From assembly GCA_964609395.1 (NCBI GenBank), contig CAZSRU010000004.1, positions 6,263 through 70,262 on the forward strand: 64,000 nt of DNA, read 5' to 3'. The DNA is from an uncultured Victivallales bacterium. GTDB taxonomy: Bacteria > Verrucomicrobiota > Kiritimatiellia > UBA8416. The position numbers and the translations under genes are program-made. The notes under the pieces are model-generated. The model worked only from the letters and a program-made list of their open reading frames with translations. It did no database searches and was not told the origin of the DNA. The number at the start of each line of letters is the position of its first letter. Positions within the stretch are counted from its first letter, which is position 1. Below are positions 34,153-52,985 of this stretch, in pieces.

Positions 34153-34172
34153 CGTCCTGTCCACCTTTCTGC

Positions 34173-34907
34173 TTAATACGCCCCCTTGCCCAGCAGGACA
34201 GCGGGGATGGTTTTGAGAAGAATCCCTATGTCATTCCAGACGCCCTGTGTCCGGATATACCGCACGTCGAGCTGCACCTGCTCGCGGAAGGGGATGTCGG
34301 AGCGGCCGGAGACCTGCCAGATGCAGGTGATCCCCGGAGTCACATGCAGGCGCTTGCGGTCCTCCAGCGTGTACTGCGCCACCTCCGCAGGCACCGGGGG
34401 CCGGGGACCGACCAGCGACATGTCGCCCAGCAGCACATTGATGAGCTGCGGGAGCTCGTCGAGACTGTAGCGCCGCAGGAAGCCCCCGATCCGGGTAATC
34501 CGCGGGTCCTTCTTCATCTTGAAGATGACGCCGTCGCCGGATTCGTTCTGCGCGAGCAGTTGCGTCTTGATCGCATCCGCGTTGCGCACCATCGAGCGGA
34601 ACTTGTAGAACCGGAACACGCGACCGTTCAGCCCGACCCGCTTCTGGAAGAAGAAGACAGGGCGCCCGTCCTCGATGATGATGATGGCCGCCAGGGTCAG
34701 GAACACCGGCGAGAGAACCACCAGCCCGGCCAGCGAGGCGGCAATGTCAATCAGGCGCTTGACCGCGAAAAGCGTGCCCAGGCTGGCCTCCCAGACCAGC
34801 AGCTTGACTTTCTGGCGGCGCTGGAACCGGCGCACCCCGGCCTTCGAGACGGGGAGATCGAGCGTTTTGAACACTTCCATCCTGGCCTGGTAGATATCTG
34901 CATTCAT
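34173..34907 (-). CDS. polyprenyl-phosphate sugar phosphotransferase (bacterial sugar transferase, priming enzyme)
   Basis: Start ATG 34905-34907 overlapping stop of upstream gene; motifs KFRSMVRNAD, LDELPQLINVLLGDMSLVGPRP, PGITCIWQVSGRS. Confidence 0.85.
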   Translation of the reverse strand: MNADIYQARMEVFKTLDLPVSKAGVRRFQRRQKVKLLVWEASLGTLFAVKRLIDIAASLAGLVVLSPVFLTLAAIIIIEDGRPVFFFQKRVGLNGRVFRFYKFRSMVRNADAIKTQLLAQNESGDGVIFKMKKDPRITRIGGFLRRYSLDELPQLINVLLGDMSLVGPRPPVPAEVAQYTLEDRKRLHVTPGITCIWQVSGRSDIPFREQVQLDVRYIRTQGVWNDIGILLKTIPAVLLGKGAY

Positions 34908-37045: not shown

Positions 37046-37166
37046 CGTGGCGCATGGTACAGGCAATTACACTTATTTGGCAAGCGCGTTCTTCCGCCAC
37101 CGTGGTTCAGAAAAGCAACCGTCAACGCGCTTGCATTGCCCGCCATTTTCTGGGAATCTTCCCGCC

Positions 37167-39255: not shown

Positions 39256-39872
39256 TGAATGCCGGTGTGAACACCGCCAGCAAAACGCCCGCCGCGCCCC
39301 CTCGTCCTGCGCCCCTTGTTCACAAGGGGCCTGTTCACAAGGGGCCAAGAGAAAAGGTGCAAGGCTACCGCTTCCCCACCCGCGATTACCGCCAACCCGC
39401 CTTCTACCTGATCACGATGAGCGCCCTCGACCGCCGCCCGCGTTTCGCCACCTGCGCCGAGAACCGCACCACGCTGACCGAGGACGGCCAGCTCGTTTAC
39501 GACCTCTGGCACCGCATCGCCAAAGACTACCCGCAAATTGCGCTTTCGACGCTGGTCATCATGCCCGACCGCCTGCACGGCATCGTCTCTCGATTCATCT
39601 CGCCGGGGGAAAAGGACATCGCCCGCGCCGCGCTGGATGCGGGCGGCGTGGTCATCCTCATGAAACCCGACGGATTCCCGCCCTGCTTCAAGCCCCACGG
39701 CAAATACTTCGACCTCTGTGTCCAAGGCCGGCTCCTCATCCTCGCCTGCCGCCCGCCCGCGGCAGGCAACACCCCCGTCACCCGCGATCTCTGCCTCGCC
39801 ATGAACCGCTGGTGCCAGCACGTTGCAAAGCCACTATGCCCCGTGGATGGAGAAGATGAGGGCAGGGAATGA
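39255..39872 (+). CDS. IS200/IS605-family (RAYT-like) transposase-related protein, probably inactivated derivative
   Basis: 205 aa; YRFPTRDYRQPAFYLITMSALDRRPRF and VIMPDRLHGIV (HuH degenerate to RLH); 5' end contains two copies of palindromic ccccttgttcacaagggg REP-like unit; start overlaps stop of Type IIG gene. Confidence 0.45.
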   Translation: MNAGVNTASKTPAAPPRPAPLVHKGPVHKGPREKVQGYRFPTRDYRQPAFYLITMSALDRRPRFATCAENRTTLTEDGQLVYDLWHRIAKDYPQIALSTLVIMPDRLHGIVSRFISPGEKDIARAALDAGGVVILMKPDGFPPCFKPHGKYFDLCVQGRLLILACRPPAAGNTPVTRDLCLAMNRWCQHVAKPLCPVDGEDEGRE

Positions 39873-39890
39873 GCATGAATCGAAAACAGC
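39853..39890 (+). repeat. partial/degenerate copy (rep0) of the ~145-bp cassette repeat
   Basis: gggcagggaatgagcATGAATCGaaaacagc resembles core ctgggaatgtgataggaatatgaatcATGAATGCGgaac of rep1-3; lies at the GC-content drop. Confidence 0.3.
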
Positions 39891-39899
39891 AATACCAAC

Positions 39900-40697
39900 G
39901 TGGCAATCGGAAGCAGCGTTATTACAATCGGCAACTATGCGTTCTCAGGCTGCAGAAAACTGACTAACATTACAATTCCAGACAACGTTAGCACCATCGG
40001 TTCATATGCATTCCAATACTGCGACAGCCTGGCCAACGTGATCATGGGCACAAGTGTTTCTTATATCGGTTCCTTTGCTTTTGAAAACTGCTATGGCTTA
40101 CTAAGCGTCGTGATTCCTGACAACGTCACTGATATTGGCAACTGGGCTTTCGGAGGCTGCACAAATCTGGCCCGTGTAACAATCGGCAACGGCGTCACCA
40201 CCATCGGGTCCTACGCTTTCTACTGGTGCTCAACTCTCACCGTTGTGTATTTCACTGGTGACGCACCTGCTCCCGATGCTTCAGTATTCGAAAACTCCCC
40301 CGCCACCATCTACTACTTGCCTAACACTATCGGCTGGGGCGACACATATTCCACCCGTCCCGCCAAACTCTGGAATCCCACGTTCACATTCATCGATATC
40401 AACGCAGGCATCATGACCTATACTATTGCAGGTACTCCGGAGATTCCGATCGCGATTGAAGTTCGTACGAATCTCCTCTCAGGCGAATGGACTCGGCTCT
40501 CCACAACTAACCTTACTGAGGGATTCCTTAATATCCAAATCTCCCGACTCAACCAACCATGCTGCTCTGTTTTATCGTATCGTCGGCCCGTGAGTGGAGC
40601 AGCAGAGCTTTTTTGGGGCTCACCGCTCTTCACCTTGAACTCCCTAATGGGGCAGCGCGATCAATTATTGTGCATGGTAATGACTCTGGGAATGTGA
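39900..40697 (+). CDS. BspA-type leucine-rich-repeat protein, probably a fragment
   Basis: GTG start, no RBS or signal peptide; repeated ~22-aa units (I..IGNYAFSGC..L..ITIPDNVSTIGSYAFQYC..L..V); low-GC; 3' end runs into repeat rep1. Confidence 0.5.
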   Translation: MAIGSSVITIGNYAFSGCRKLTNITIPDNVSTIGSYAFQYCDSLANVIMGTSVSYIGSFAFENCYGLLSVVIPDNVTDIGNWAFGGCTNLARVTIGNGVTTIGSYAFYWCSTLTVVYFTGDAPAPDASVFENSPATIYYLPNTIGWGDTYSTRPAKLWNPTFTFIDINAGIMTYTIAGTPEIPIAIEVRTNLLSGEWTRLSTTNLTEGFLNIQISRLNQPCCSVLSYRRPVSGAAELFWGSPLFTLNSLMGQRDQLLCMVMTLGM

Positions 40698-40775
40698 TAG
40701 GAATATGAATCATGAATGCGGAACTTACAAGGCGTTGTGTGCGGGCGATGACGGAGACCGGCGAGGGATCGCTGG
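40628..40775 (+). repeat. ~145-bp interspersed repeat, copy 1 (rep1)
   Basis: ~85-90% identical to copies at 41803-41950 and 43979-44122 over ...gcgatcattttgtgcatggcaatgactctgggaatgtgataggaatatgaatcatgaatgcggaacttataaggcgttgtgtgcgggcgatgacggaaaccgg.gaggg. Confidence 0.75.
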
Positions 40776-40921
40776 TGCCGCTGTGCCGTAAAATCGTGCG
40801 CAATTTCCACGTGGCCGAGGTTCCGCATCGGAGCAGGCAGACGAAAACAAAGCAAAGCGTCTTCTTGCAAACGTGACCAGCGTCGGTCATAGTCTATCGC
40901 AAAAGCGCAGGCAGGTACTGG

Positions 40922-41722
40922 ATGACAGTTCAGAATTCAATTACTTTTGGCGACTACATCGTCTTTGTCGATGAAACCGGCGATCACGGCTTAAACAGCA
41001 TCAGCAAGGAATTCCCGCTGTTTGGTTTGGCATTTTGCGTCGTTCGAAAATCCGAGTACATCGGCACCATCACGCCCGCTCTGCGTCGGCTGAAGTTTCA
41101 GACATTCGGGCACGATATCATCGTACTGCATGAGCACGATATCAGGAAACGCGAGAATGCCTTTGCCATGATGAGCAGGCAACCTCGTGAGGCATTTCTA
41201 AATGCGCTAACAAAAATCATCGAATCGGCCGCATTTAGACTCATCACGGTCATTATCGATAAACGGCTTTTGTCTCCTTCGCTGGAAGCGCAAAACCCTT
41301 ATCACATGGCGCTTTTGTTTGGTCTTGAACGTGTATACCGCATGCTATCAGAATGCGGGCAGGCCGACACATTTACGCATATTGTCGTTGAGTCGAGGGG
41401 CAAGCGGGAAGATGCTGAACTCGAACTGGAGTTCCACCGCATCACGGAAGGTGAGAATACGTTCGCCAAACCATTGCCGTTCCGTCTGATCATGGCCGAT
41501 AAACGGACCAATTCCGAAGGGCTTCAGCTTGCGGATATGGTTGCACGCCCCGTTGCGCTTTCAATCCTTCGCCCTGATCAGGCAAACCGAGCCTTTGATG
41601 TCTTACGTGACAAATTCTGGACCAGCGCCGACGGCATCATGGATGATTACGGTCTTAAAGTGTATCCGACAAAAACGAAAGGGCCACCGGGAAGTCCCAG
41701 TAGCCCTTCGCCGAACGGGTAG
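40922..41722 (+). CDS. DUF3800-family protein
   Basis: 266 aa; N-terminal YIVFVDETGDHGL and C-terminal SEGLQLADMVARP signature regions; low-GC; flanked by rep1 and rep2. Confidence 0.6.
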   Translation: MTVQNSITFGDYIVFVDETGDHGLNSISKEFPLFGLAFCVVRKSEYIGTITPALRRLKFQTFGHDIIVLHEHDIRKRENAFAMMSRQPREAFLNALTKIIESAAFRLITVIIDKRLLSPSLEAQNPYHMALLFGLERVYRMLSECGQADTFTHIVVESRGKREDAELELEFHRITEGENTFAKPLPFRLIMADKRTNSEGLQLADMVARPVALSILRPDQANRAFDVLRDKFWTSADGIMDDYGLKVYPTKTKGPPGSPSSPSPNG

Positions 41723-41802
41723 TCCCATTCCAAATCTGGTTTGATACTAGCCTGTCTTAGTGAAATAGCCAATCATTTTTTCAGTTGGCATTTGGGGTAC
41801 TC

Positions 41803-41950
41803 CATTCTCCCCTTTGAATTGCCGAGGGGCCGCGATCATTTTTGTGCATGGCAATGCGCTGGGAATGTGATAGGAATATGGATCATGAATGCGCAACTTA
41901 TAAGGCGTTGTGTGCGGGCGATGACGGAAACCGGTGAGGGCACGCTGGTG
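41803..41950 (+). repeat. ~145-bp interspersed repeat, copy 2 (rep2)
   Basis: see rep1; carries conserved short ORF start ATGAATGCGcaacttataaggcgttgtgtgcgggcgatgacggaaaccggtgagggc (MNAQLIRRCVRAMTETGEG). Confidence 0.75.
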
Positions 41951-41999
41951 ATGGTTTTTTGAGAATTGAACGGAGTATGACATTGGAAGGAGGCCGGTT

Positions 42000-43280
42000 A
42001 TGGCCAAGATTGAAGGGTTCAGGGTACGCAACTTTGGCGTGCTGAGGGATGTTACGCTTGGGAAATTGTGGAATTTGCAGACTGCCCAGCCGTTGACCCC
42101 CATGACTGCGGTTATCGGCAAGAACGGCGTCGGCAAAAGCACGTTGTTCAATGCATTCGGCTTTCTCGCGGATGCCTTGAAATCGGGTGTCGAGGAGGCT
42201 TGCGACGCGCGCGGGAGAGGCGGATTCGACAGGATTCGGTCTCAAGGCATCAAAGAGCCGGTAGAGTTCGAGATCTACTACAAGGAAGAGGGCAGTACAC
42301 GTCCAATCACGTACTCACTCTCGATGGATCTGGACAAGACCGGCCGTCCCTATGTGAAGCAAGAACGGTTGCGGCAGCGGCGCAAGGGCCAGAAGCATGG
42401 GTGGCCATTCTCGTTTCTGATGCTGAACGATGGCAAGGGTGTCGCGTGGAAAGGCGAGGATGCCGGCTGGGAGGTGAACGAGGACAAGGAGTTGTTCGAT
42501 CTGGCAGGTCTTATTGACGAGGTGCAGCGCAAGGAAGGTCCTGAAACCGAAGTCGTTGAGTTGCAGGACAAGCGTAAACTCGGCATTGCCACACTCGGGT
42601 CTTTGAAACAACATCCCCGCATCTCGCTGTTCCGGCAGTTTATCGAAGGTTGGTATCTGAGCTACTTCACGCCTGACGCCGCCCGAGGATTGCCGCTGGC
42701 CGGTCCGCAACGCCATTTGAACATTCACGGCGACAATGTCGGTAATGTCGTTCAGTACATGGAGCGGGAATACCCCGCTAAGTTCCAGACCGTACTGGAT
42801 CGCATCTCGAAGAAGATTCCGGGTATCGATAAGATCACCTGGGATAAGACGAAAGACGGCCGGTTGCTGCTCTGTTTTAACGACAAGGGATTCGAAGATC
42901 CCTTTTATGCCCAACAAATGTCGGACGGCACACTGAAAGTATTCGCCTACCTTCTTTTGCTTGAAGACCCTTCGCCCCCGCCGTTCCTATGCATTGAGGA
43001 ACCAGAGAACGGGCTCTATCACAAGTTACTCGAGACTCTGGCGGCTGAGTTCCGTGCCCATGCAACGGGAAGAAAAGGCGGTTCGCAGGTTTTCGTCACT
43101 ACGCATCAACCGTATTTTGTCGATGCACTGACCCCCGAAGAGGTGTGGGTATTGGAAAAGGGCAAAGACGGTTTCTCAACCGTCCGTCGCGCTAGCGACG
43201 ATCAAACCGTACAGAACATGGTAACCGAAGGGTTGCCCCTGGGCGGCCTGTGGTACAGCGACTATCTTGACGCGAGGTAA
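42000..43280 (+). CDS. AAA/ABC-type ATPase of two-gene defence-like module (AbiLi / PARIS AriA-like)
   Basis: ATG after GGAAGGAGG; Walker A VIGKNGVGKSTLFNAFGFL; ABC signature-like QMSDGTLKV; Walker B/D-loop PPFLCIEEPENGLY; H-loop VFVTTHQPYF. Confidence 0.75.
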   Translation: MAKIEGFRVRNFGVLRDVTLGKLWNLQTAQPLTPMTAVIGKNGVGKSTLFNAFGFLADALKSGVEEACDARGRGGFDRIRSQGIKEPVEFEIYYKEEGSTRPITYSLSMDLDKTGRPYVKQERLRQRRKGQKHGWPFSFLMLNDGKGVAWKGEDAGWEVNEDKELFDLAGLIDEVQRKEGPETEVVELQDKRKLGIATLGSLKQHPRISLFRQFIEGWYLSYFTPDAARGLPLAGPQRHLNIHGDNVGNVVQYMEREYPAKFQTVLDRISKKIPGIDKITWDKTKDGRLLLCFNDKGFEDPFYAQQMSDGTLKVFAYLLLLEDPSPPPFLCIEEPENGLYHKLLETLAAEFRAHATGRKGGSQVFVTTHQPYFVDALTPEEVWVLEKGKDGFSTVRRASDDQTVQNMVTEGLPLGGLWYSDYLDAR

Positions 43281-43284
43281 TCGC

Positions 43285-43944
43285 ATGCACTTTGAAATAC
43301 TGGTTGAAGACCAATCCGGGAAAAAGCTGTTGGACGAGATTGTGCCGCGCATCATTGGTGCTCCCCACACCTTTCGAGTACTGCCTTACAAGGGGATTGG
43401 AAAAATCCCGAAAGGATTGAAGCCTGGTTCTGATGCGAGCAAACGAATCCTTCTGGATCAACTGCCCCGCATTCTCAAAGGGCACGGAAAGACCTTTGCC
43501 GGCTACGGTCCGGGCTATCTTGCGGCGGTGGTTATTGTCTGTGATCTGGATCGCAAGTGTTTCCATGAATTCCGCCAAGAGCTTCTCGGAATTTTGGATG
43601 CTTGCGACCCGAGACCAGATACCCGATTCTGCCTTGCTGTCGAGGAGGGAGAGGCATGGCTTCTTGGAGACCGCGAGGCTATTCGAGCGACCTATCCGAA
43701 TGCAAAGTCCGCAGTTCTTGATGGCTACGTTCAGGACAGCATCTGCGACACTTGGGAATTGCTTGCAGACGCAATCCATCCCGGAGGCTCAAGAGCGTTG
43801 ATTGCTGCGGGATGGCAGGCCGCTGGAGCTGCCAAGTCGGCCTGGGCCACAGCGATTTCTCCTCACATGAAGATTGAAGACAACAATTCGCCAAGTTTTC
43901 ACTATTTTCGAAGCAAATTGCTAGAACTTGCTGGACAGAATTAA
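43285..43944 (+). CDS. DUF4276-like protein (predicted Toprim/OLD-like partner of the ATPase; AbiLii-like)
   Basis: ATG 43285 seven nt after GAGGT and 5 nt after ATPase stop; N-terminus MHFEILVEDQSGKKLL typical of DUF4276 (conserved E in ILVE); 219 aa. Confidence 0.55.
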   Translation: MHFEILVEDQSGKKLLDEIVPRIIGAPHTFRVLPYKGIGKIPKGLKPGSDASKRILLDQLPRILKGHGKTFAGYGPGYLAAVVIVCDLDRKCFHEFRQELLGILDACDPRPDTRFCLAVEEGEAWLLGDREAIRATYPNAKSAVLDGYVQDSICDTWELLADAIHPGGSRALIAAGWQAAGAAKSAWATAISPHMKIEDNNSPSFHYFRSKLLELAGQN

Positions 43945-44609: not shown

Positions 44610-45623
44610 TTACCAGCGCAGGTGGCCTCGGCGCAGGTCGCCTGCCGCGCCCGCGGCCACGGCCAGGTTGAGCAGGGTGCGTGCGAGCGCGCCGGGCAGC
44701 GCCTTCCAGACGGCAGCCCCGCGACACTGCCGCAACTGCCGCCAGGGCACGGGCAGCATGATGCCGATCCGCCGCCATGGGACCCGGCGGCCATGCTCGC
44801 GGATCAGACGACGGAACCAGTCCGGGTCAGCCTGGGTCTGGACACGCATCCACCCGCCCACCGCGATGCCCTCGCGCGCCAGCGCTTCCGCCTTCTCGAA
44901 AAGCAGGATGTTGCACAGCGTGCCGATCAGGATCCGCTTCTCGTGGCGGTAAACCGAACCCAGGCTCGTCTCGGCCTCGAACACGTGATACGCGCCTGCC
45001 GCCCGCACCAGTCTCGACTCGTTCTCGGGATGCGTGAATCCGTCGGTCACCAGCATGGCCTTGATGAACCCGTCCTCCACCAGCATGGGTTCCGGCAGGA
45101 AAATGGCGCGCATGGCCGCGGCACGGGCGGCATAGAGCTGCCCGCAGAGTTTCGGGGGGCCGGCCGCCGCCAGCACCGAGGCGGAAAGCGATAGGCGGTC
45201 CCGTACGCGGCTGACCTTGCCTCCGGCAAGATCCTTGACCGGCTGGTCGACGGCGGCGACCGCCTCGGGATTTGCAGCCAGCGCATCGATCAGCGCGCGC
45301 AGGGTGTCCGGCTGCGGGAGGCGTATGTCCGCATCGGCCAGGATCAGGATATCGGCCGCCGCCGGAGCCAGTGAGTGGACGAACTGGTTCCAAGCGTTGG
45401 CCTTGCCTGCCTGCTCCAGGACGACGACGCGATGCGGCACGTCGAACCCGTCCAAGGCCTCGCGCGCCCGCTCCGCCGTGCGGTCGGTCGAGCCGTTCAC
45501 CACCACAACCAGGCTGGCCTCGCCATCCAGCGTCCGCCAGAAGTCCTGCCGCCGTACATCCGCAAGCGTGTCGCCGATGCCACGCTCCTCGTTATGCGCC
45601 ATCATGCCAAGACAGATATTCAT
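44610..45623 (-). CDS. glycosyltransferase family 2
   Basis: 337 aa; GT-A N-terminal domain (ICLGMMAHNEERGIGDTLADV...LVVVVNGSTDRT), DxD ILILADADI. Confidence 0.75.
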   Translation of the reverse strand: MNICLGMMAHNEERGIGDTLADVRRQDFWRTLDGEASLVVVVNGSTDRTAERAREALDGFDVPHRVVVLEQAGKANAWNQFVHSLAPAAADILILADADIRLPQPDTLRALIDALAANPEAVAAVDQPVKDLAGGKVSRVRDRLSLSASVLAAAGPPKLCGQLYAARAAAMRAIFLPEPMLVEDGFIKAMLVTDGFTHPENESRLVRAAGAYHVFEAETSLGSVYRHEKRILIGTLCNILLFEKAEALAREGIAVGGWMRVQTQADPDWFRRLIREHGRRVPWRRIGIMLPVPWRQLRQCRGAAVWKALPGALARTLLNLAVAAGAAGDLRRGHLRW

Positions 45624-45689
45624 AAGGATTTACATTTAATGGGGTTTGCTATAAAAACGCAAGATCATAACCCGCCGAGGAACAAATAC

Positions 45690-47081
45690 ATGACACCAAT
45701 GGTACCGCTAGCGATGTTCGGATGGCCCCCGCTGGCCATCTGGCTATTCGCGCGATTCCGTCACCGCCCGCGCCTGGCGGTGATCGCGGGGTTCCTGCTG
45801 GCCTGGATGTTCCTGCCCAATTACGGCTACAAGCTGCCCGCACTGCCGGATTACACGAAGATCAGCGCGGCCTGCTTCGGCATCCTGCTCGGGGCGGCCA
45901 TCTTCGACCCGGCGGTATTCCGCCGCTTCCGGTTGCGGGGCTGGGATGCCCCGCTGCTGGTGTGGACGCTGGTACCGTTCCTCACCTCGCTGTCCAACGG
46001 ACTGGGTGCGTACGATGGCGTCTCGGCCGCGCTGGGCCGCTTCACGCAATGGGGAATCCCCTACTTTCTCGGGCGGCTCTACTTCAACCGCCGCGAGGCC
46101 CTGGAGGATCTGCTGCTGGGCTTCTTCATCGGGACGCTGGTCTATATCCCCTTCTGCTGGTTCGAGATCGTCATGAGTCCCCGCCTGCACCGTATCGTCT
46201 ACGGTTTCCACCCCCATTCGTTCGCGCAGGCCAAGCGCTCGGGCGGCTGGCGCCCCGTGATCTTCATGCAGCACGGCCTGATGAATTCCATGTGGATGGT
46301 GTCCGGCTTTGTCGCCGGCTTCTCGCTCCTGATCAGCAGGCGGCTGGGCCGTCGCCTGCCCGGTCCCCTGCCCGCCTGGACGGCGGCAATCGCCGTGCTG
46401 TTCGTCACGATCATCCTGCTGAAATCCACCGGGGCCCTGTTCCTGCTGCTGCTTGGAACGCTTGTACTAATGGTGTTCCGCACACTGCGCACAGCCCTGC
46501 CGCTGGTGCTGCTGCTGGCCATACCGCTCACGTATGCCACCGTACGGTCCACCGGACTCTGGGACGGGACTCACCTGATCGAGGCGGCCGCCAGTGCCGC
46601 CAACGCGGAACGGACCGGGTCGCTGGCCTTCCGCATCGAGAACGAGACGATCCTTGCCGGGCATGCCTTGAAACGCCCGCTGCTGGGCTGGGGCGAGTGG
46701 GGCCGCTCGTTCGTCCGCGACGAGGAGGGCCGGATCGTCTCGGTGCCCGACGGGCTCTGGATCCTGGCGTTCGGCAAAAGCGGCTATGTCGGGCTCTCGG
46801 CACTGCTGCTGCTCTTCTTTGTCCCCCCGCTGCTGTTCCTGCGCCGCTACCCGCCTGCCACATGGAAGGACCCCGCCGTGGCCGCCGTGCTGGCGGGACC
46901 GCTGCTGCTGGCGCTTTTCGCGCTCGACAGCCTGATGAATGATATGTTTAATCCCCTGATGCTGCTGCTGGCGGGCGGACTGACCGGCCTCTGGCTGCAG
47001 GATGATCCCGGCGACACGAACGATGTGAGCGGCATGAGCCCCCCCGCGCCGGTGCAGGCGACCGGACCCAGGCTGATCTGA
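45690..47081 (+). CDS. O-antigen ligase/polymerase-family integral membrane protein
   Basis: Start trimmed to ATG 45690 (MTPMVPLAMFGWPPLAIWLF...); ~11 TM helices with large loop (HLIEAAASAANAERTGSLAFRIENETILAGHALKRPLLGWG). Confidence 0.7.
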   Translation: MTPMVPLAMFGWPPLAIWLFARFRHRPRLAVIAGFLLAWMFLPNYGYKLPALPDYTKISAACFGILLGAAIFDPAVFRRFRLRGWDAPLLVWTLVPFLTSLSNGLGAYDGVSAALGRFTQWGIPYFLGRLYFNRREALEDLLLGFFIGTLVYIPFCWFEIVMSPRLHRIVYGFHPHSFAQAKRSGGWRPVIFMQHGLMNSMWMVSGFVAGFSLLISRRLGRRLPGPLPAWTAAIAVLFVTIILLKSTGALFLLLLGTLVLMVFRTLRTALPLVLLLAIPLTYATVRSTGLWDGTHLIEAAASAANAERTGSLAFRIENETILAGHALKRPLLGWGEWGRSFVRDEEGRIVSVPDGLWILAFGKSGYVGLSALLLLFFVPPLLFLRRYPPATWKDPAVAAVLAGPLLLALFALDSLMNDMFNPLMLLLAGGLTGLWLQDDPGDTNDVSGMSPPAPVQATGPRLI

Positions 47082-47091: not shown

Positions 47092-48555
47092 ATGAGTTCT
47101 ACACCAACGCCCCGCCACCCCTCGATGCGGCGCCAGGCCATCCTCGGATCGCTCTGGACCCTGTTCGGCTACGGGGCCTCGCAGGTACTCCGGCTGATCA
47201 GCAACCTGGTTCTCGCCCGGCTGCTCTTCCCGGAGGCGTTCGGCCTGATGGCGCTGGTGAACGTGTTCATGCAGGGGCTGCAGATGTTCTCCGATATCGG
47301 GATCGGCCCCGGCATCATCCAGAACCGGCGCGGAACCGACCCCGCGTTCCTGCGTACCGCGTGGACAATCCAGGTCTTCCGCGGCTTCGCGCTCTGGCTG
47401 CTGTGCTGCGCGGCCGCCCCCGCCGTGGCCCGTTTCTTCGCGGCCTCGGATCCCATGGCCCTCGACCTGCGCCTGCTGCTGCCGGTCACCGGACTGACCG
47501 CGCTGCTGGGCGGCTTCACCTCCACCTCGGTATTCACGCTCAACCGCAAGCTCGACATGCGCCGCATGACCCTGCTCGAACTGGTGCCGCAAGGGATCTC
47601 GCTGCTGTTCATGGCGCTCTGGGCATGGCAGCACCCCTCGGTCTGGGCCCTTGTCGGCGGCGGGCTGGTCTTCAGCCTGGTGCGGCTGGTAATGAGTCAT
47701 CTGATGAACCGCGACCATCGCGACGGCTTCGCCTGGGAGCCGGAAGCGCGCCGGGAACTGTTCCGTTTCGGGCGCTGGGTCTTTCTCAGCACCGTGATCA
47801 GCTTCCTGGCGACCCACCTGGACCGGCTGCTGCTGGGACGCCTGCTGACACTCGGGGAACTGGGCATCTACAGTATTGCCATGACGCTGGCGCGGGTGGC
47901 GATCCACACGTCCAGCAGGCTGAGTTCCTCCGTGATCTTCCCGCTGCTCTCCCGCCACCAGGACGACCCGCCCCGGCTGGTGGATTCCTGCCTGCGGGCA
48001 CGCACGGGCGTACTCTTCGCCAGCGGCGCGATCTGCAGCGGCTTCGCCCTCTTCGCCCCGCTCTTCTTCGAGAGCCTCTATGATGCCCGCTACGCCGCCG
48101 CCGGGGATATCTCCCGCTGGCTGGCGCTCTATACCTGGACACACGTGCTGCTGGTCAGCATGGACCGCATCCCGCTGGCACTCGGCCACCCGCGGCAGCT
48201 TTTCCTGGCCAACCTGATCACCACCGCGGGCATGACGGCGGCCGTAGCAGGCTACCGGCTGCTGCAGCTTCCCGGCTTCATCGCCGGCATGGCGTTCGCC
48301 AACCTGCTCTCGCATGCGTTCCTCGCCGCGACGCTGCCGGCACACCGCCGCCGGATGGGGCTGCAGTCGGCCGCCTTCACCGGCGCGTTCGCGCTCTACA
48401 CGCTCGCGGGGGTCGCCGTGCTGGAGACGGCGAAAGCCGCGTGGCCGCTGCTACCCTATGCGGCCCTCGTGTGCGCCGCCGCCGCCCTCCCCTTCCTCCC
48501 CGCCGGACTCTGGATGCTGAAACTGGCACGCCAGAAGAAGAGGGGACGCGCATGA
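47092..48555 (+). CDS. wzx: polysaccharide flippase (Wzx/MOP superfamily)
   Basis: 487 aa, ~12 TM helices; N-terminal signature ILGSLWTLFGYGASQVLRLISNLVLARLLFPEAFGL. Confidence 0.8.
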   Translation: MSSTPTPRHPSMRRQAILGSLWTLFGYGASQVLRLISNLVLARLLFPEAFGLMALVNVFMQGLQMFSDIGIGPGIIQNRRGTDPAFLRTAWTIQVFRGFALWLLCCAAAPAVARFFAASDPMALDLRLLLPVTGLTALLGGFTSTSVFTLNRKLDMRRMTLLELVPQGISLLFMALWAWQHPSVWALVGGGLVFSLVRLVMSHLMNRDHRDGFAWEPEARRELFRFGRWVFLSTVISFLATHLDRLLLGRLLTLGELGIYSIAMTLARVAIHTSSRLSSSVIFPLLSRHQDDPPRLVDSCLRARTGVLFASGAICSGFALFAPLFFESLYDARYAAAGDISRWLALYTWTHVLLVSMDRIPLALGHPRQLFLANLITTAGMTAAVAGYRLLQLPGFIAGMAFANLLSHAFLAATLPAHRRRMGLQSAAFTGAFALYTLAGVAVLETAKAAWPLLPYAALVCAAAALPFLPAGLWMLKLARQKKRGRA

Positions 48556-49382
48556 GCCACCGCGGCAACGATCCATGGCTAGACCTGGCGACAGCCGTCA
48601 GCAACGGGAGCATCCCCGGCATGGAGATCCTGCGCGAACGCGGGCGGGACGTGCGGATCGCGCGGGTCACCGGCCCGGAAGGCCGGTCCGTGATCGTGAA
48701 ATGCTGGTGCCGGACCGGCCTGCGCGGGGCCCTGCGCCGCCTGAGCGGCAGCAACGTGGCCTGGCGGGAGTATGTCGCCCTGCGCCGCCTGCACGCGGCC
48801 GGTATCCCCTGTCCGCCGCCCCTGGCTTATCGTCGGCTTGACCTGTCGAACGCCTGCCATACCGAGGCGCTGGTTTCGGGCGATCTCGGAATATGCCGCG
48901 ACAGCACGGAATGGTACAAGCGGATCCTGCAGGACGACCCGCCCGCCGCCAGGGCCTTCGAGCGTCACCTGGTCGAGGCCACGGCCACGATGGTGAAATG
49001 CGGCCTGATCGATACCGACCATCGCCTGCCAAATTTCGTCATCCCGCCCGATGGCATCCCCGTGCGGCTGGATTTCGAGCTGTGCATTCCCACCCGTTTC
49101 CCGATGTTCCAGCCGGCACGACTCGGACGGATGATCGGCGTGCTGCTCGGCAGCTACCATTTCGCCGTCCAGCCCGATATCGCCCGCAGCACGGCGTTCG
49201 CGCGGCAACTGCTCGCCCGCATCCCGCTTGCCGCGGCCGCGAAACGGCATACCCTGCTCACGGTTGAAGAAATGCTCGACCGGCAGCAGCGCGAGGCCGG
49301 CATCGAATCGGCATTCGAGGCATGGAAAGAGGCGCTGGCAAGGGCGCCTGGGACCAGGATAATGCAGGAGGGTGACGATTAA
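48552..49382 (+). CDS. lipopolysaccharide kinase (Kdo/WaaP/InaA family)-like protein
   Basis: Start ATG 48552 overlapping wzx stop (ATGA); kinase-like VIVKCW...; catalytic-loop-like LIDTDHRLPNFVI. Confidence 0.55.
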   Translation: MSHRGNDPWLDLATAVSNGSIPGMEILRERGRDVRIARVTGPEGRSVIVKCWCRTGLRGALRRLSGSNVAWREYVALRRLHAAGIPCPPPLAYRRLDLSNACHTEALVSGDLGICRDSTEWYKRILQDDPPAARAFERHLVEATATMVKCGLIDTDHRLPNFVIPPDGIPVRLDFELCIPTRFPMFQPARLGRMIGVLLGSYHFAVQPDIARSTAFARQLLARIPLAAAAKRHTLLTVEEMLDRQQREAGIESAFEAWKEALARAPGTRIMQEGDD

Positions 49383-49406: not shown

Positions 49407-50930
49407 ATGAAGTTGACAAAACGCGACGGAACAGAAGGATGGAAAAAAATGGACAGACATAAACAAGCGCGCACGACGCATGACAACCCCGCCGCGATCC
49501 CGCTGGTGATCATGGGCGTCCCCTTCCATCGGGTCACCAACACACAGACAGTGGATTGGTGCCTTGAACACATCCGGCGGCGGGTTCCCGGCTATGTCAC
49601 CACGCCCAACCTCGACTTCGTCATGCACGCCGGGCGCGACCCGGAGCTTTACCGTATCCTGGCGCAATCCGACCTGGTCATTGCCGACGGGATGCCGATC
49701 ATCTGGCTTTCCGGCTGGCTCGGCCCGCGACTCCCCGAACGCGTGGCTGGCAGCGACCTGGTGGTAAACCTCTCCAAGGCCGCGGCGGAGAACGGCATGT
49801 CCGTCTTCAACCTGGGCGGAGCACCGGGGGTACCGGAAAAGGCGGCAGACACTCTGGAAGCCCGCTTCCCCGGCTTCCGCCTGGCCGGAGCCTACTCGCC
49901 ACCCAAGGCGGATCTGCTGGACATGGATCATGACACGATTCTCGGGCTACTGGATGCATCGAACCCCGATATACTCTATGTCGCGTTCGGCGCACCCAAG
50001 CAGGAAAAATGGATCAACATGCACGTCTCGCAGTGGAAGGTGCCGCTGGCGCTCGGCATCGGCGGCAGCCTGGACTTCCTGGCAGGCACCCAGAAACGCG
50101 CCCCGCGCTGGATGCAGAAAACCGGCACGGAATGGATCTGGCGCTTCGGAACCAACCCCGCCCGCTTCTGGAAACGCTACGGGGCCAACTTCGTGTTCCT
50201 GCTGCGCGCCTGCCTGACGATACGGCGCTTGAAAAAGGCCCCGCTGCACCCGGTTGCGGCGATCCTACCGCCCGCAGACAGGCGTGACGGCATACGGACC
50301 TGCGATTGGCAGCCTGTCACCGATGACCAGGCGGCATCCCGTATCATAACCAACTATTGCCGGGAGAACGAACGGCGGCCCTTGATCGTGAATCTTGAAC
50401 ATTGCGAATGGCTCGACAGCCGGGAGCTGGGAGTCCTGCTCACGCTCGGCCGGTATGGCCGCAAACACGGGATTCCCGTGTTTTTCACCGGTGCGGCAGG
50501 TCGCGTTCAACGCTTACTCGCGGTCAATGGCCTGGAGAGCCTGCTCGACGAGGCAAGGGCGGATACCGACTGGACGGCGTTGACGCAACAGGCAGAGGCC
50601 GGCCCGGCGACATCCGTGGCCGATGGCGAATGCCTGCGACTGATCCCCCCGCCAGAACTGACTGCCGTCTCGCTGCAGGCGTGGCGAGGTCCAGTGGATA
50701 ACGCGCTCAACGCCCTGCCGGCGACGGTGCGCATGGTCGAGATTGATACCGCCTGCATGCGGTTCATCGACAGTGCCGCCATCGGGTTCCTGATTGCGCT
50801 GAAGAAGAGGATCGAAAGCGGCAACCGCCGTTTTCTCGTGACACACATGCAGCCAGCCGTGCGCACGACCATGCGCCTCGCCCGTGTGGAATCGCTGCTG
50901 GCCGACAAGGAGCAGGACGCCACAGCATAA
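49407..50930 (+). CDS. WecB/TagA/CpsF-family (GT26) glycosyltransferase fused to two C-terminal STAS domains
   Basis: GT26 region (PLVIMGVPFHRVTNTQTVDW...DILYVAFGAPKQEKWI...ALGIGGSLDFLAGTQKRAPRWMQKTGTEWIWRF); then two STAS-like units (PLIVNLEHCEWLDSRELGVLLTLGRYGRKHGIPVFFTGAAGRVQRLLAVNGL and VRMVEIDTACMRFIDSAAIGFLIALKKRIESGNRRFLVTHMQPAVRTTMRLARV); alt. start ATG 49449. Confidence 0.7.
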   Translation: MKLTKRDGTEGWKKMDRHKQARTTHDNPAAIPLVIMGVPFHRVTNTQTVDWCLEHIRRRVPGYVTTPNLDFVMHAGRDPELYRILAQSDLVIADGMPIIWLSGWLGPRLPERVAGSDLVVNLSKAAAENGMSVFNLGGAPGVPEKAADTLEARFPGFRLAGAYSPPKADLLDMDHDTILGLLDASNPDILYVAFGAPKQEKWINMHVSQWKVPLALGIGGSLDFLAGTQKRAPRWMQKTGTEWIWRFGTNPARFWKRYGANFVFLLRACLTIRRLKKAPLHPVAAILPPADRRDGIRTCDWQPVTDDQAASRIITNYCRENERRPLIVNLEHCEWLDSRELGVLLTLGRYGRKHGIPVFFTGAAGRVQRLLAVNGLESLLDEARADTDWTALTQQAEAGPATSVADGECLRLIPPPELTAVSLQAWRGPVDNALNALPATVRMVEIDTACMRFIDSAAIGFLIALKKRIESGNRRFLVTHMQPAVRTTMRLARVESLLADKEQDATA

Positions 50931-51042
50931 AGAATCGACTCCACAGGCGATCGTTCTCGATTAACCGTTTCTTCATACGGACATCATACGATACTAACGC
51001 CATGCTTTGATCATGCTGCCATCTATTACGAAAGGTGGCAGG

Positions 51043-51891: not shown

Positions 51892-51944
51892 ACGCCATGA
51901 CCAACCCATTAATTCAACAGCAACCCTCACACAGGAGAGATAAG

Positions 51945-52973: not shown

Positions 52974-52985
52974 GGCGGGATACGG

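What the first reader, a model, noticed from the sequence alone, without database searches (positions are those of the whole stretch)
49407..50930. GT26 (WecB/TagA/CpsF) glycosyltransferase fused to two STAS domains - a possible enzymatic output of the partner-switching module
After a complete GT26 catalytic region the ORF continues for ~230 aa. This tail contains two sequential units with the STAS/SpoIIAA pattern (hydrophobic beta-strands, LD/ID-S/T-A/R-xxG region: NLEHCEWLDSRELGVLLTL and VEIDTACMRFIDSAAIGFLIAL). Glycosyltransferase-STAS fusions are not a commonly described architecture. In the same EPS region (12 kb away) sit a free STAS protein and an Hpt-REC-PP2C-kinase. This suggests the GT itself could be the switchable partner, sequestered or released by STAS phosphorylation.
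Basis: inference. Interest (0 to 1): 0.75.

Follow-up and report, generated by a model that had tools for sequence, protein, structure and literature searches.

The report
Sugar-adding enzyme with built-in phospho-switch domains
A polysaccharide-building enzyme (TagA/WecG type) carries two extra STAS domains, one keeping the serine that kinases normally phosphorylate, so a nearby kinase/phosphatase signalling protein probably switches the enzyme itself on and off; this has so far been shown only for a different enzyme in cyanobacteria.

Summary
One uninterrupted ORF (49449-50930, + strand, 493 aa) encodes a complete GT26 (WecB/TagA/CpsF) glycosyltransferase followed by two STAS domains. All TagA catalytic residues are conserved. 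This is a large family, not a one-off: 115 full-length relatives were aligned, and 704 cluster representatives carry the twin-STAS tail at E<=1e-10. Members occur in Kiritimatiellota, Lentisphaerota, Verrucomicrobiota, Chloroflexota, Armatimonadota and Desulfobacterota.

The two units differ. STAS2 keeps the canonical phospho-acceptor Asp-Ser (D441 in 114/115, S442 in 113/115 plus one Thr). STAS1 has its own signature, W-L-x-S-x-E-L-G, and loses the Ser in 17/115.

The fusion belongs to a recurrent polysaccharide cassette: Bac_transf primer, NTP-transferase/hexapeptide protein, free STAS, and Hpt-REC-PP2C-RsbW-like kinase. In this window a ~6-7 kb low-GC island splits the cassette; in a relative it is compact.

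Best reading (inferred, confidence 0.55): reversible phosphorylation of STAS2 controls the second, probably committed, step of lipid-linked repeat-unit synthesis. The closest precedent is Anabaena All4160 (N-terminal STAS fused to Bac_transf, 2026). I found no literature on GT26-STAS.

Novelty: new variant of a known kind. Interest 0.55.

The parts
49449..50930 (+). GT26-STAS1-STAS2 fusion gene (493 aa). Alternative upstream starts lie at 49383 (GTG) and 49407 (ATG).
   Evidence: There is no internal stop, P0001 is 100% identical, and GAAGGA precedes 49449.
49503..50123 (+). GT26 (WecB/TagA/CpsF, GT-E fold) catalytic core, residues about 19-225. It contains T52, N54, D80, R98, Q185 and E186.
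   Evidence: Pfam PF03808 E 1.5e-56. TIGR00696 scores 129 bits against a cut-off of 69. Foldseek matches TagA 7mpk/5wb4 with target TM 0.94-0.95 and 36-38% identity. These positions are invariant or >=90% conserved.
50124..50237 (+). TagA-type C-terminal appendage, residues about 226-263. It carries invariant R232, R239 and R243 and the long amphipathic helix 237-263 (PARFWKRYGANFVFLLRACLTIRRLKK).
   Evidence: Alignment to full-length T. italicus TagA places R214/R221/R224 on R232/R239/R243. The helix is seen in the model. The role of the appendage in TagA comes from PMC6493773.
50295..50573 (+). STAS1, residues about 283-375. It is a truncated, divergent STAS with the signature W321-L322-x-S324-x-E326-L-G328. 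The S324 codon is at 50418-50420.
   Evidence: Pfam on the unit alone. Alignment to B. subtilis SpoIIAA 1auz places S324 at S58. The model shows a beta-alpha-beta-alpha-beta-alpha unit without the N-terminal hairpin.
50604..50909 (+). STAS2, residues about 386-487. It is a complete canonical STAS with the P401-x-E403-L404-T start motif and the phospho-acceptor D441-S442 (codons 50769-50774) at the N-terminus of helix 442-457.
   Evidence: D441 is present in 114/115 relatives and S442 in 113/115, plus one Thr.
48552..49382 (+). Atypical protein-kinase-like protein (276 aa) immediately upstream. It is the constant neighbour of the fusion in the closest clade.
47092..48555 (+). Wzx-type flippase (Polysacc_synt_3).
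45639..47081 (+). Putative Wzy-type polymerase (480 aa). It has no Pfam hit in this window, but the L005 homologue has a weak Wzy_C hit.
44610..45623 (-). GT2 glycosyltransferase, divergent from the Wzy-Wzx-kinase-GT26 operon.
37981..43944 (+). Low-GC inserted island (Eco57I-like methylase, BspA-LRR, DUF3800, AAA_21 plus DUF4276). It splits the polysaccharide cassette.
   Evidence: The island is absent from the compact homologous cluster in L005.
34904..37066 (-). Hpt-REC-PP2C(SpoIIE)-RsbW-like kinase (HATPase_c_2). It is the candidate kinase/phosphatase for the STAS units.
   Evidence: Pfam. The following motifs were read in the translation: Hpt AHTLQG; REC phospho-acceptor Asp in LALVDVVMPG; PP2C IGGDMFD, ADVCGHG, LYTDGLTEA and TDDCSLL; N-box TEHNVNTVRHG; G2 ENGRGL.
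34173..34988 (-). Bac_transf priming phosphoglycosyl transferase (maximal ORF; probably about 244 aa, as in relatives).
33811..34164 (-). Free single-domain STAS protein with the canonical MIDSAGLG motif. It overlaps the start of the downstream hexapeptide gene by 4 nt.
32384..33814 (-). NTP-transferase / left-handed beta-helix (hexapeptide, GMPPB_C-like) protein. It is paired with the free STAS gene in every locus where both were detected except L035.

Best explanation
The gene encodes an active TagA/WecG-type GT26 glycosyltransferase. It most likely adds the second sugar to the undecaprenyl-diphosphate-linked sugar made by the cluster's Bac_transf primer, which would be the first committed step of this Wzx/Wzy-dependent polysaccharide.

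The C-terminal regulatory module hangs directly on the TagA-type appendage. In TagA that appendage supplies active-site arginines and mediates membrane binding and the switch between inactive dimer and active monomer.

STAS2 is a bona fide SpoIIAA-like phospho-acceptor. Ser442 would be phosphorylated by an RsbW-like serine kinase and dephosphorylated by a PP2C. In this genome both activities sit in the Hpt-REC-PP2C-kinase protein of the same cluster. The balance between them would be set by His-Asp phosphorelay from the neighbouring hybrid histidine kinases.

The phosphorylation state of STAS2 would switch the enzyme in cis, probably by changing how the STAS pair packs against the appendage or core, or by changing membrane association or oligomeric state. 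By analogy with All4160, phospho-STAS would be the off state.

STAS1 is a degenerate, probably non-phosphorylated unit that acts as a structural adaptor or docking surface. The free STAS protein is a second, parallel substrate of the same kinase/phosphatase.

Shown here: the architecture, the folds, conservation of catalytic and phospho-site residues, and the recurrent synteny. Inferred: that phosphorylation happens, which kinase performs it, the direction of the effect, and the sugar specificity.
For: Architecture and folds:
- Pfam and NCBIfam assign the domains.
- The AlphaFold2 model has pLDDT 92.6 and pTM 0.90, which implies a defined inter-domain arrangement.
- Foldseek matches TagA and SpoIIAA/RsbV.

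Enzyme competence:
- Every TagA catalytic or appendage residue maps to an invariant or >=90% conserved position: T52, N54, D80, R98, Q185, E186, R232, R239, R243.
- The TagA mechanism is taken from PMC6493773.

Phospho-site:
- D441 is present in 114/115 relatives and S442 in 113/115 plus one Thr.
- S442 aligns to the phospho-Ser of SpoIIAA and TM1442 and lies at the N-terminus of helix alpha2 in the model.
- Every one of about 40 fusions taken from species genomes keeps a Ser at this position in at least one STAS unit.

Kinase and phosphatase:
- The Hpt, REC, PP2C and HATPase_c_2 motifs are all intact.

Synteny:
- The compact cassette STAS / Bac_transf / Hpt-REC-PP2C-kinase // GT2 / Wzy / Wzx / kinase-like protein / GT26-STAS2 is found in L005.
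- Related cassettes occur in L006, L015 and L035 (Verrucomicrobiota) and in L034, L039 and L043 (Chloroflexota).
- In Chlorobiales an unfused GT26 sits with two free STAS genes, a REC-PP2C and, in L053 and L067, an RsbW-like kinase; in L052, a 7.5-kb contig, none was detected.

Precedent:
- All4160 is controlled at Ser74 by the kinase Alr3423 and the REC-SpoIIE phosphatase HenR (PMC13555669).
Against: - No phosphorylation data exist for any member of this family.
- Only 9 of 38 fusion loci show a PP2C or RsbW-like gene within the available flanks. The enrichment over unfused GT26 loci (3 of 45) is borderline (p = 0.057) and is not corrected for phylogeny.
- PVC-group genomes are generally thought to carry many partner-switching genes (my own knowledge, not tested here), so some proximity could be chance.
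- The kinase/phosphatase is always next to the free STAS, Bac_transf and hexapeptide genes. Its primary substrate may therefore be the free STAS.
- The G1 box of the kinase domain is imperfect (DHGIP).
- phmmer of the kinase domain against PDB sequences did not retrieve SpoIIAB or RsbW.
Confidence: 0.55

Rival explanations
1. The STAS pair is a phosphorylation-independent scaffold. It would mediate dimerisation or assembly of the GT26 with the primer, Wzx/Wzy, the free STAS protein or the membrane. The conserved Ser would be structural, serving as the N-cap of helix alpha2.
For: - STAS1 is clearly not constrained as a phospho-site (Ser in 98/115, with Ile or Pro otherwise; no conserved Asp).
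- Natural GT26 plus STAS1-only proteins exist away from any signalling genes (L020).
- Most fusion loci (27 of 38) have no partner-switching gene within the available flanks.
- MlaB and SLC26 STAS domains, which act as non-phosphorylated adaptors, also appear among the structural matches.
Against: - The full D-S-[AS]-[AG]-L-G kinase-recognition motif, not just the Ser, is near-invariant in STAS2.
- That motif is the same as in the cluster's free STAS.
- The cassette with kinase and phosphatase recurs across phyla.
Confidence: 0.2
2. True partner switching. The RsbW-like kinase domain would bind and sequester the unphosphorylated STAS2 of the enzyme, in competition with the free STAS protein. 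The enzyme would then be held or released rather than regulated in cis. Alternatively, the enzyme's STAS would feed back on the kinase.
For: - Two potential STAS ligands (free and fused) with near-identical phospho-site motifs share one kinase domain in the same cluster.
- Canonical RsbW and SpoIIAB form stable complexes with unphosphorylated STAS proteins (structures 1th8 and 6m36 appear among the matches).
Against: - The kinase is fused to its own phosphatase and receiver, as in HsbR and SypE. In those systems, to my knowledge, the STAS protein rather than the kinase carries the output.
- No sigma factor or other sequestered partner was found among the ORFs scanned.
- In the only studied STAS-enzyme fusion, a non-phosphorylatable variant is simply active.
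Confidence: 0.1
3. The atypical protein-kinase-like protein encoded immediately upstream (48552-49382), rather than the RsbW-like domain, is the enzyme's dedicated kinase or regulator.
For: - It is the most constant neighbour in the closest clade.
- Its gene overlaps the fusion gene's start by 4 nt in L003 and L005.
- The fold is a confident kinase fold: PRPK/Bud32 E 1e-11, WaaP, RIO2.
- K50, E73, D154, D156, H157, N161 and D174 are invariant.
- It is present even where no RsbW or PP2C gene is nearby (L004, L007).
Against: - The nearest bacterial relative, WaaP, is primarily a sugar kinase, so phosphorylation of the polysaccharide is the default reading.
- The gene is absent from most fusion loci (32 of 38), although Ser442 is conserved throughout.
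- STAS phospho-sites are classically substrates of GHKL-type kinases, not of eukaryotic-like kinases.
Confidence: 0.07
4. The STAS units are ligand sensors, binding a nucleotide, nucleotide-sugar or anion as has been reported for some STAS domains. They would adjust GT26 activity to metabolite levels.
For: - STAS domains of SLC26 transporters appear among the fold matches.
- The review PMC8256260 cites GTP binding by SpoIIAA.
- STAS1 has a family-specific invariant acidic signature (E326) of unknown role.
Against: - No ligand-binding motif was identified.
- The best sequence and structure matches are phospho-regulated antagonists.
- The cluster encodes a complete kinase/phosphatase.
Confidence: 0.08

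Closest known systems
Anabaena sp. PCC 7120 All4160 (also All2285 and Synechocystis XssP): STAS-fused Bac_transf enzymes under a partner-switching-like module (Harada, Matsuoka and Ehira 2026, PMC13555669)
   Same: A STAS domain with the canonical phospho-Ser is fused to an early enzyme of lipid-linked polysaccharide synthesis. The partners are an RsbW-like Ser kinase and a receiver-SpoIIE/PP2C phosphatase. The output is enzyme activity rather than a sigma factor.
   Different: - The enzyme family differs: GT26 second-step glycosyltransferase here, against a priming phosphoglycosyl transferase there.
- The STAS module is C-terminal and doubled here, against a single N-terminal STAS there.
- Kinase and phosphatase are fused with Hpt and REC in one protein here.
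- The lineages differ (PVC group, Chloroflexota, Desulfobacterota). The authors describe their architecture as rarely found outside cyanobacteria.
- Nothing is experimentally tested here.
TagA/TarA (wall teichoic acid) and WecG (enterobacterial common antigen), the founding GT26 enzymes
   Same: The GT-E fold matches (target TM 0.94-0.95, 36-38% identity). All catalytic residues and the three appendage arginines are conserved. The likely role is second sugar transfer onto an Und-PP-sugar.
   Different: - TagA and WecG end after the appendage, with no STAS domains.
- NCBIfam equivalog cut-offs are not reached: TarA 115 bits against 350, WecG-type 88.5 against 323, EpsA 164 against 500. The donor and acceptor sugars are therefore unknown.
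Vibrio fischeri SypE-SypA (syp polysaccharide locus) and Pseudomonas aeruginosa HptB-HsbR-HsbA
   Same: A receiver-containing bifunctional RsbW-like kinase plus PP2C phosphatase acts on a single-domain STAS protein. It is fed by hybrid sensor kinases and an Hpt domain, and it controls biofilm or polysaccharide production. In syp the module lies inside the polysaccharide locus next to a Bac_transf gene. The window's protein has the HsbR domain order with the Hpt fused on.
   Different: In those systems the STAS protein is free and its target is either unknown (SypA acts 'at an unknown level', PMC11112999) or is not a glycosyltransferase (HsbA; my own knowledge). Here a second set of STAS domains is covalently attached to a biosynthetic enzyme.
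SpoIIAA/RsbV anti-sigma-factor antagonists
   Same: The STAS fold matches, and STAS2 has the D-S phospho-site at the N-terminus of helix alpha2.
   Different: No sigma or anti-sigma output was found. The STAS units are domains of an enzyme. STAS1 lacks the N-terminal hairpin and the conserved Asp.

Membership tests
GT26 (WecB/TagA/CpsF) glycosyltransferases | Match to the family profiles above curated thresholds | tested here: met
   PF03808 scores 191 bits against a cut-off of 27.4. TIGR00696 scores 129 bits against 69.
GT26 (WecB/TagA/CpsF) glycosyltransferases | GT-E fold as in the TagA crystal structures | tested here: met
   Foldseek matches 7mpk, 7n41, 5wb4 and 5wfg with E about 1e-18, target TM 0.94-0.95 and rmsd 1.5-2.0 Å.
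GT26 (WecB/TagA/CpsF) glycosyltransferases | Catalytic base Asp65, Thr37, Asn39, Arg83 and Gln167/Glu168, plus the appendage arginines Arg214, Arg221 and Arg224 | tested here: met
   These map to D80, T52, N54, R98, Q185/E186 and R232/R239/R243. All are invariant or >=90% conserved in 115 relatives.
GT26 (WecB/TagA/CpsF) glycosyltransferases | Orthology to a characterised member (TarA, WecG or EpsA), which would give the sugar specificity | tested here: not met
   All equivalog models score far below their cut-offs.
STAS / anti-sigma-factor antagonist (SpoIIAA, RsbV) domains | STAS fold | tested here: met
   Both units reach a Pfam STAS threshold when tested alone. Structural matches include SpoIIAA, TM1442, RsbS, RsbV and MlaB. 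STAS1 is N-terminally truncated.
STAS / anti-sigma-factor antagonist (SpoIIAA, RsbV) domains | Conserved Asp-Ser/Thr phospho-acceptor at the start of helix alpha2: STAS2 | tested here: met
   D441 is present in 114/115 relatives and S442 in 113/115 plus one Thr. The Ser aligns to the phospho-Ser of SpoIIAA and TM1442.
STAS / anti-sigma-factor antagonist (SpoIIAA, RsbV) domains | Conserved Asp-Ser/Thr phospho-acceptor at the start of helix alpha2: STAS1 | tested here: inconclusive
   In the window the motif is D-S. Across the family the Asp position varies (S41, D30, N27, T15) and the Ser is Ile or Pro in 17/115. In a Verrucomicrobiota subfamily STAS1 is canonical DS[ST]G.
STAS / anti-sigma-factor antagonist (SpoIIAA, RsbV) domains | NCBIfam ant_ant_sig (TIGR00377) cut-off | tested here: not met
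   The score is 52.9 bits against a cut-off of 53.45, so it is marginally below.
Partner-switching system (STAS, RsbW-type kinase, PP2C phosphatase) | A cognate HATPase_c_2 kinase and a SpoIIE/PP2C phosphatase encoded with the STAS protein | tested here: met
   The gene at 34904-37066 carries both domains with intact motifs. It is 12.4 kb away in this window and about 4.7 kb away in the uninterrupted cluster of L005.
Partner-switching system (STAS, RsbW-type kinase, PP2C phosphatase) | A sigma factor or other protein that is alternately bound, that is, the switch itself | tested here: not met
   No sigma or anti-sigma family appears among the roughly 40 window ORFs scanned against Pfam.
Partner-switching system (STAS, RsbW-type kinase, PP2C phosphatase) | Reversible phosphorylation of the STAS Ser by these enzymes | not testable with these tools
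   This needs a kinase assay, Phos-tag gels or mass spectrometry.
STAS-fused polysaccharide enzymes of the All4160 type | N-terminal single STAS fused to a Bac_transf domain | tested here: not met
   Here the order is GT26 followed by two C-terminal STAS units. The cluster's Bac_transf (34173-34988) has no STAS.
STAS-fused polysaccharide enzymes of the All4160 type | Phosphorylation of the fused STAS inactivates the enzyme | not testable with these tools
   This is inferred only by analogy.

The most novel reading that the evidence does not exclude
The twin-STAS tail would make a committed-step glycosyltransferase the direct enzymatic output of a phosphorelay-driven serine phospho-switch, in three parts.

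- STAS1 would act as an intramolecular pseudo-partner that latches the TagA-type catalytic and membrane-binding appendage.
- Phosphorylation of STAS2 would release or engage that latch.
- One bifunctional kinase/phosphatase would control two consecutive steps of repeat-unit assembly: through the free STAS (primer and nucleotidyl-transferase) and through the fused STAS (GT26).

If true, post-translational gating of lipid-linked polysaccharide synthesis by STAS phosphorylation would be a widespread principle across many phyla, not a cyanobacterial speciality. It would also suggest where to look for the long-unknown target of SypA-type free STAS proteins, namely the early glycosyltransferases of their own loci.
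Probability: 0.2. Interest if true: 0.75.

Novelty: new variant of a known kind. Interest (0 to 1): 0.55.

Why it matters
Bacteria must avoid tying up the scarce undecaprenyl-phosphate carrier, so control of the first committed steps of polysaccharide synthesis is important. That control is mostly known at the level of transcription or through c-di-GMP.

Direct serine-phospho control of a biosynthetic enzyme through a fused STAS domain was first demonstrated in 2026, for a cyanobacterial priming enzyme. The authors proposed it to be lineage-specific. This locus and its hundreds of relatives indicate that the same logic was built independently onto a different enzyme (GT26) in the PVC group, Chloroflexota, Armatimonadota and Desulfobacterota. 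The doubled STAS module is placed exactly on the structural element that activates TagA.

This gives a concrete, testable site (Ser442) and a testable partner set. It may also help explain how free STAS proteins such as SypA control polysaccharide output.

Tried and rejected
- Two genes separated by a stop: rejected. There is no internal stop, and 115 relatives share the architecture.
- Tail belonging to an unrelated fold: rejected.
- Word-indexed profile search with the tail: it found only 7 proteins and was uninformative. The exhaustive search replaced it.
- P0127 as a stand-alone twin-STAS example: its contig L086 is fragmented by apparent frameshifts, so it was not used. Stand-alone twin-STAS proteins P0216 and P0252 do exist, but I did not check whether they are complete.
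- phmmer of the kinase domain against PDB sequences: it gave only spurious DHFR hits. Kinase competence therefore rests on the Pfam HATPase_c_2 match and on motifs read by eye.
- AFDB fold search: the library was unavailable.
- Neighbourhood enrichment of PP2C or RsbW near fused against unfused GT26 loci: borderline only (9/38 against 3/45, p = 0.057). I do not rest the case on it.
- Literature searches for GT26/WecG/CpsF with STAS: they returned nothing relevant.
Full report
**1. Observation**

The + strand carries one open reading frame from 49383/49407/49449 to 50930 with no internal stop. The best start is ATG 49449. GAAGGA lies 9 nt upstream of it, a public gene call of 493 aa is 100% identical (P0001), and relatives begin near that position. 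All residue numbers below use this 493-aa form.

Pfam finds Glyco_tran_WecG (E 1.5e-56) plus two STAS stretches. NCBIfam finds the WecB/TagA/CpsF superfamily model above its cut-off, and ant_ant_sig with two stretches.

Each STAS unit is significant when tested alone:
- STAS1 (50280-50615): PF01740, E 3.6e-5, 23.9 bits against a cut-off of 22.6.
- STAS2 (50616-50927): PF13466, E 4.5e-10, 40 bits against a cut-off of 29.2.

An AlphaFold2 model built on 115 relatives is very confident (pLDDT 92.6, pTM 0.90). Foldseek matches TagA/TarA for the core (target TM 0.94-0.95) and SpoIIAA, TM1442, RsbS and RsbV for the tail.

**2. The enzyme part**

Alignment to full-length Thermoanaerobacter italicus TagA (7mpk) gives the following residue map:

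| TagA | This protein |
|---|---|
| Thr37 | T52 |
| Asn39 | N54 |
| Asp65 (proposed catalytic base) | D80 |
| Arg83 | R98 |
| Gln167 / Glu168 | Q185 / E186 |
| Arg214 / Arg221 / Arg224 (C-terminal appendage) | R232 / R239 / R243 |

All of these positions are invariant or at least 90% conserved among 115 relatives.

According to Kattke et al. 2019 (PMC6493773), the TagA appendage is required for catalysis because Arg221 enters the active site. It also forms the membrane-binding patch, and it underlies a toggle between inactive cytoplasmic dimers and active membrane-bound monomers.

In this protein the appendage continues as a long amphipathic helix (residues 237-263). STAS1 begins about 20 residues after that helix. 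The STAS pair is thus attached to exactly the element that activates this enzyme family.

The equivalog models for TarA, WecG and EpsA are far below their cut-offs, so the sugars transferred are unknown.

**3. The two STAS units are not equivalent**

Both serines align with SpoIIAA Ser58.

STAS2 (about residues 386-487) is a complete STAS:
- It has a beta-hairpin followed by alpha/beta repeats.
- It has the usual "xELT" start motif (P401 invariant, E403 and L404 at least 90%).
- It has the motif F-[ILVM]-D-S-[AS]-[AG]-[LI]-G.
- D441 is present in 114/115 relatives, and S442 in 113/115 plus one Thr.
- This is the same motif as in the cluster's free STAS protein, MIDSAGLG.

STAS1 (about residues 283-375) is divergent:
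- It lacks the N-terminal hairpin.
- Its signature is W321-L322-x-S324-x-E326-L-G328.
- The position before the Ser varies (S, D, N or T).
- The Ser is Ile or Pro in 17/115 relatives.
- The canonical Gly two residues after the Ser is an almost invariant acidic residue (104 Glu, 9 Asp).

Natural proteins with GT26 plus a STAS1-type unit only exist. One example, in L020, is 366 aa long and sits between housekeeping genes.

In a second subfamily (Verrucomicrobiota, L014-L035) both units are mostly canonical DS[ST]G; three members (L016, L017, L024) have Ala or Gly at the STAS1 Ser position. In Chloroflexota the first unit is canonical and the second has lost the Asp. Every fusion examined keeps a Ser at the phospho-site position in at least one unit.

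**4. Size and spread of the family**

The word-indexed search returned 567 proteins at E<=1e-10. Almost all of the best 120 have the GT26+STAS architecture, are 456-540 aa long, and carry only the generic name "WecB/TagA/CpsF family glycosyltransferase".

An exhaustive profile search with the twin-STAS tail against 1.84 billion cluster representatives gave 704 hits at E<=1e-10 and 46 at E<=1e-30.

In one genome per species, about 36 of the 80 best GT26 loci carry the double-STAS fusion. The lineages are:
- Kiritimatiellales / Pontiella
- Lentisphaerales
- Opitutaceae
- Chthoniobacterales
- Limisphaerales
- Cerasicoccus frondis
- Chloroflexota
- Chthonomonadia
- Desulfobacterales

The twin-STAS module also occurs in other arrangements:
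- N-terminal to a GT4 enzyme (P0304)
- with a doubled GT26 (P0230)
- with a phosphopantetheinyl-transferase fused to GT26 (P0307)
- as triple-STAS proteins (P0240, P0306)
- stand-alone (P0216, P0252)

**5. Genomic context**

The window holds a Wzx/Wzy-type polysaccharide cluster.

On the - strand:
- REC (29596-30393)
- GT4 glycosyltransferase
- GT2 glycosyltransferase
- NTP-transferase/hexapeptide protein (32384-33814)
- free STAS (33811-34164)
- Bac_transf primer (34173-34988)
- Hpt-REC-PP2C-HATPase_c_2 (34904-37066)

On the + strand, after a divergent GT2 (44610-45623):
- putative Wzy polymerase
- Wzx flippase
- 276-aa kinase-like protein
- the GT26-STAS-STAS fusion

The two halves are separated by a low-GC block (about 51-54% GC against about 63-66% in the flanks). 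It encodes an Eco57I-like methylase, a BspA-LRR protein, DUF3800, and AAA_21 plus DUF4276 (37981-43944).

In the homologous cluster of L005 the block is absent and the two halves abut. The order there is STAS / Bac_transf / Hpt-REC-SpoIIE-HATPase_c_2 // GT2 / Wzy / Wzx / 258-aa protein / fusion, followed by a hybrid histidine kinase.

The kinase/phosphatase protein has the following motifs intact, read from the translation:
- an Hpt histidine (AHTLQG)
- receiver residues
- all four PP2C metal-site motifs (IGGDMFD, ADVCGHG, LYTDGLTEA, TDDCSLL)
- an N-box (TEHNVNTVRHG) and a G2 box (ENGRGL), with an imperfect G1 box (DHGIP)

Upstream lie four hybrid histidine kinases, one of them with its own Hpt domain, and a REC-GGDEF protein. 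These could feed the receiver.

**6. How general is the link to the kinase/phosphatase?**

Within the available flanks (at most 10 kb each side), a PP2C and/or an RsbW-like gene accompanies the fusion in 9 of 38 loci. Any partner-switching gene accompanies it in 11 of 38. For unfused GT26 loci the figure is 3 of 45 (Fisher p = 0.057, not corrected for phylogeny). This enrichment is weak.

The conserved gene order across phyla is more telling:
- Verrucomicrobiota (L006, L015, L035) and Chloroflexota (L034, L039, L043) place the fusion beside Bac_transf, the hexapeptide protein, a free STAS, and a PP2C and/or RsbW-like kinase (both except in L034, where no PP2C was detected).
- Chlorobiales (L052, L053, L067) have an unfused GT26 in the order REC-PP2C / GT26 / Bac_transf / STAS / hexapeptide / STAS. 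An RsbW-like gene follows in L053 and L067; in L052 the 7.5-kb contig ends just after the second STAS. So there are two free STAS genes where the others have two fused ones.

The kinase/phosphatase travels with the free STAS, Bac_transf and hexapeptide genes more strictly than with GT26. In many lineages the fusion sits in other polysaccharide loci with no local signalling genes. Examples are the exosortase EpsH/EpsI locus in L087 and the Wza/Wzy locus in L088. Ser442 is conserved in these lineages too, so if it is phosphorylated the kinase must be encoded elsewhere.

**7. Mechanism proposed**

Shown:
- an apparently active GT26 with a TagA-type appendage
- a canonical phospho-acceptor STAS fused after it
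- an apparently competent RsbW-like kinase plus PP2C, with receiver and Hpt domains, in the same conserved cassette

Inferred:
- The phosphorelay sets the kinase/phosphatase balance.
- Ser442 is reversibly phosphorylated.
- Phosphorylation changes how the STAS pair packs on the appendage or core. The high pTM suggests a fixed arrangement.
- That change alters membrane association or the monomer/dimer state, and so switches the probable committed step of repeat-unit synthesis.
- By analogy with All4160, phosphorylation would be inhibitory.
- STAS1 would be a structural adaptor.
- The free STAS would be a parallel substrate, possibly acting on its translationally coupled hexapeptide neighbour or on the primer.

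I put this at 0.55. The rivals are a phosphorylation-independent scaffold (0.2), true sequestration by the kinase (0.1), the upstream kinase-like protein as the regulator (0.07), and ligand sensing (0.08).

**8. Comparison with what is known**

The closest functional precedent is All4160 of Anabaena, an N-terminal STAS fused to Bac_transf. Its Ser74 is phosphorylated by Alr3423. It is activated by the REC-SpoIIE phosphatase HenR, and the S74A variant bypasses HenR (PMC13555669). Those authors state that STAS+Bac_transf proteins are rarely found outside cyanobacteria, and they call the strategy lineage-specific.

The 2021 review of STAS-only proteins mentions only All4160 as a non-transporter STAS fusion (PMC8256260).

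The domain logic of the kinase/phosphatase resembles HsbR with HptB fused on, and SypE. SypA's level of action is still described as unknown (PMC11112999).

Searches for STAS combined with WecG, CpsF, GT26 or sugar transferase found nothing on GT26-STAS. The held library lacks many subscription-journal papers, so this is absence from the library, not proof of absence.

The protein is a member of GT26 and contains STAS domains. It is not an All4160-type protein, and there is no evidence of a sigma-factor switch.

**9. Verdict**

- Observation: confirmed.
- Novelty: a new variant of a known kind, that is, STAS phospho-control fused onto a different enzyme, doubled and C-terminal, in different phyla.
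- Interest: 0.55. The architecture is widespread and already auto-annotated, and the principle has just been published for another enzyme. Against that, the placement on TagA's activating appendage, the breadth across phyla, and the link to SypA-type systems make it a worthwhile and directly testable lead.

Noticed in passing
window 48552-49382 (+): A 276-aa 'hypothetical protein' lies immediately upstream of the fusion. Its gene overlaps the fusion gene's start by 4 nt in the L003 and L005 homologues. The model is a confident atypical protein-kinase fold (pLDDT 92.8; best matches PRPK/Bud32 E 1e-11, WaaP, RIO2). K50, E73, D154, D156, H157, N161 and D174 are invariant. The family is small (about 38 clusters), has no Pfam assignment at threshold, and accompanies the fusion only in the closest clade. 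It could be a sugar kinase or a protein kinase.
   Followed up: partly
window 37981-43944: A low-GC island (about 51-54% GC) splits the polysaccharide cluster. It carries an Eco57I/MmeI-like methylase, a BspA-type LRR protein, DUF3800, and an AAA_21 ATPase with a DUF4276 partner. It is absent from the otherwise syntenic cluster in L005, so it is probably an inserted defence island.
   Followed up: partly
window 8990-16990: A second lower-GC block (about 55-57% GC) holds a type III restriction ResIII helicase. It also holds an N6_N4 DNA methylase split into two ORFs (11701-12690 and 12916-13485; a possible frameshift or pseudogene). In addition it has a subtilase S8 protease paired with an AAA ATPase.
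   Followed up: no
window 32384-34164 (-); also L003, L005, L006, L015, L034, L039, L043, L052, L053, L067: The free STAS gene lies directly upstream of a 470-480-aa NTP-transferase/left-handed beta-helix (GMPPB_C-like) gene, overlapping it in this window. The pairing holds in all these loci across several phyla (L035 is the exception, where the two genes are on opposite strands). This suggests that the free STAS may act on that enzyme.
   Followed up: partly
L052, L053, L067 (Chlorobiales): An unfused GT26 sits in an operon-like cluster in the order REC-PP2C, GT26, Bac_transf, STAS, hexapeptide protein, STAS; an RsbW-like kinase gene follows in L053 and L067 but was not detected in L052, a 7.5-kb contig that ends just after the second STAS. 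There are two free STAS genes where PVC-group bacteria have two fused units.
   Followed up: partly
L018, L019, L020 (for example L020 5452-6552): Natural GT26 proteins carry only the divergent STAS1-type unit (signature xLxSxE[IL]G) and no STAS2. In L020 the gene lies between hemL-like and anthranilate-synthase-like genes, away from any polysaccharide or signalling cluster.
   Followed up: partly
proteins P0304, P0307, P0230, P0240, P0306: The twin-STAS module has other partners: N-terminal to a GT4 glycosyltransferase; after a 4'-phosphopantetheinyl transferase fused to GT26; after a doubled GT26; and as triple-STAS proteins, one of which has a sub-threshold TPR_2 match.
   Followed up: no
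window 5436-8972, 17112-29412: There is a dense signalling neighbourhood with four hybrid histidine kinases: PAS-GAF-HK-REC-REC; REC-HK-REC-REC (three receiver stretches); 7TM-HK-REC-Hpt; and a 1782-aa CHASE4-PAS-GAF-HK-REC-REC. A REC-GGDEF diguanylate cyclase (17112-18050) is also present. Phosphorelay and c-di-GMP inputs may converge on this polysaccharide locus.
   Followed up: no
window 51007-57900: Directly downstream of the fusion lies an unrelated module: a HAD hydrolase (phosphonoacetaldehyde-hydrolase-like by my reading), a solute-binding protein, an ABC ATPase, a fused permease and, in the L001 annotation, a class-III aminotransferase. It looks like a 2-aminoethylphosphonate uptake and degradation operon.
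   Followed up: no
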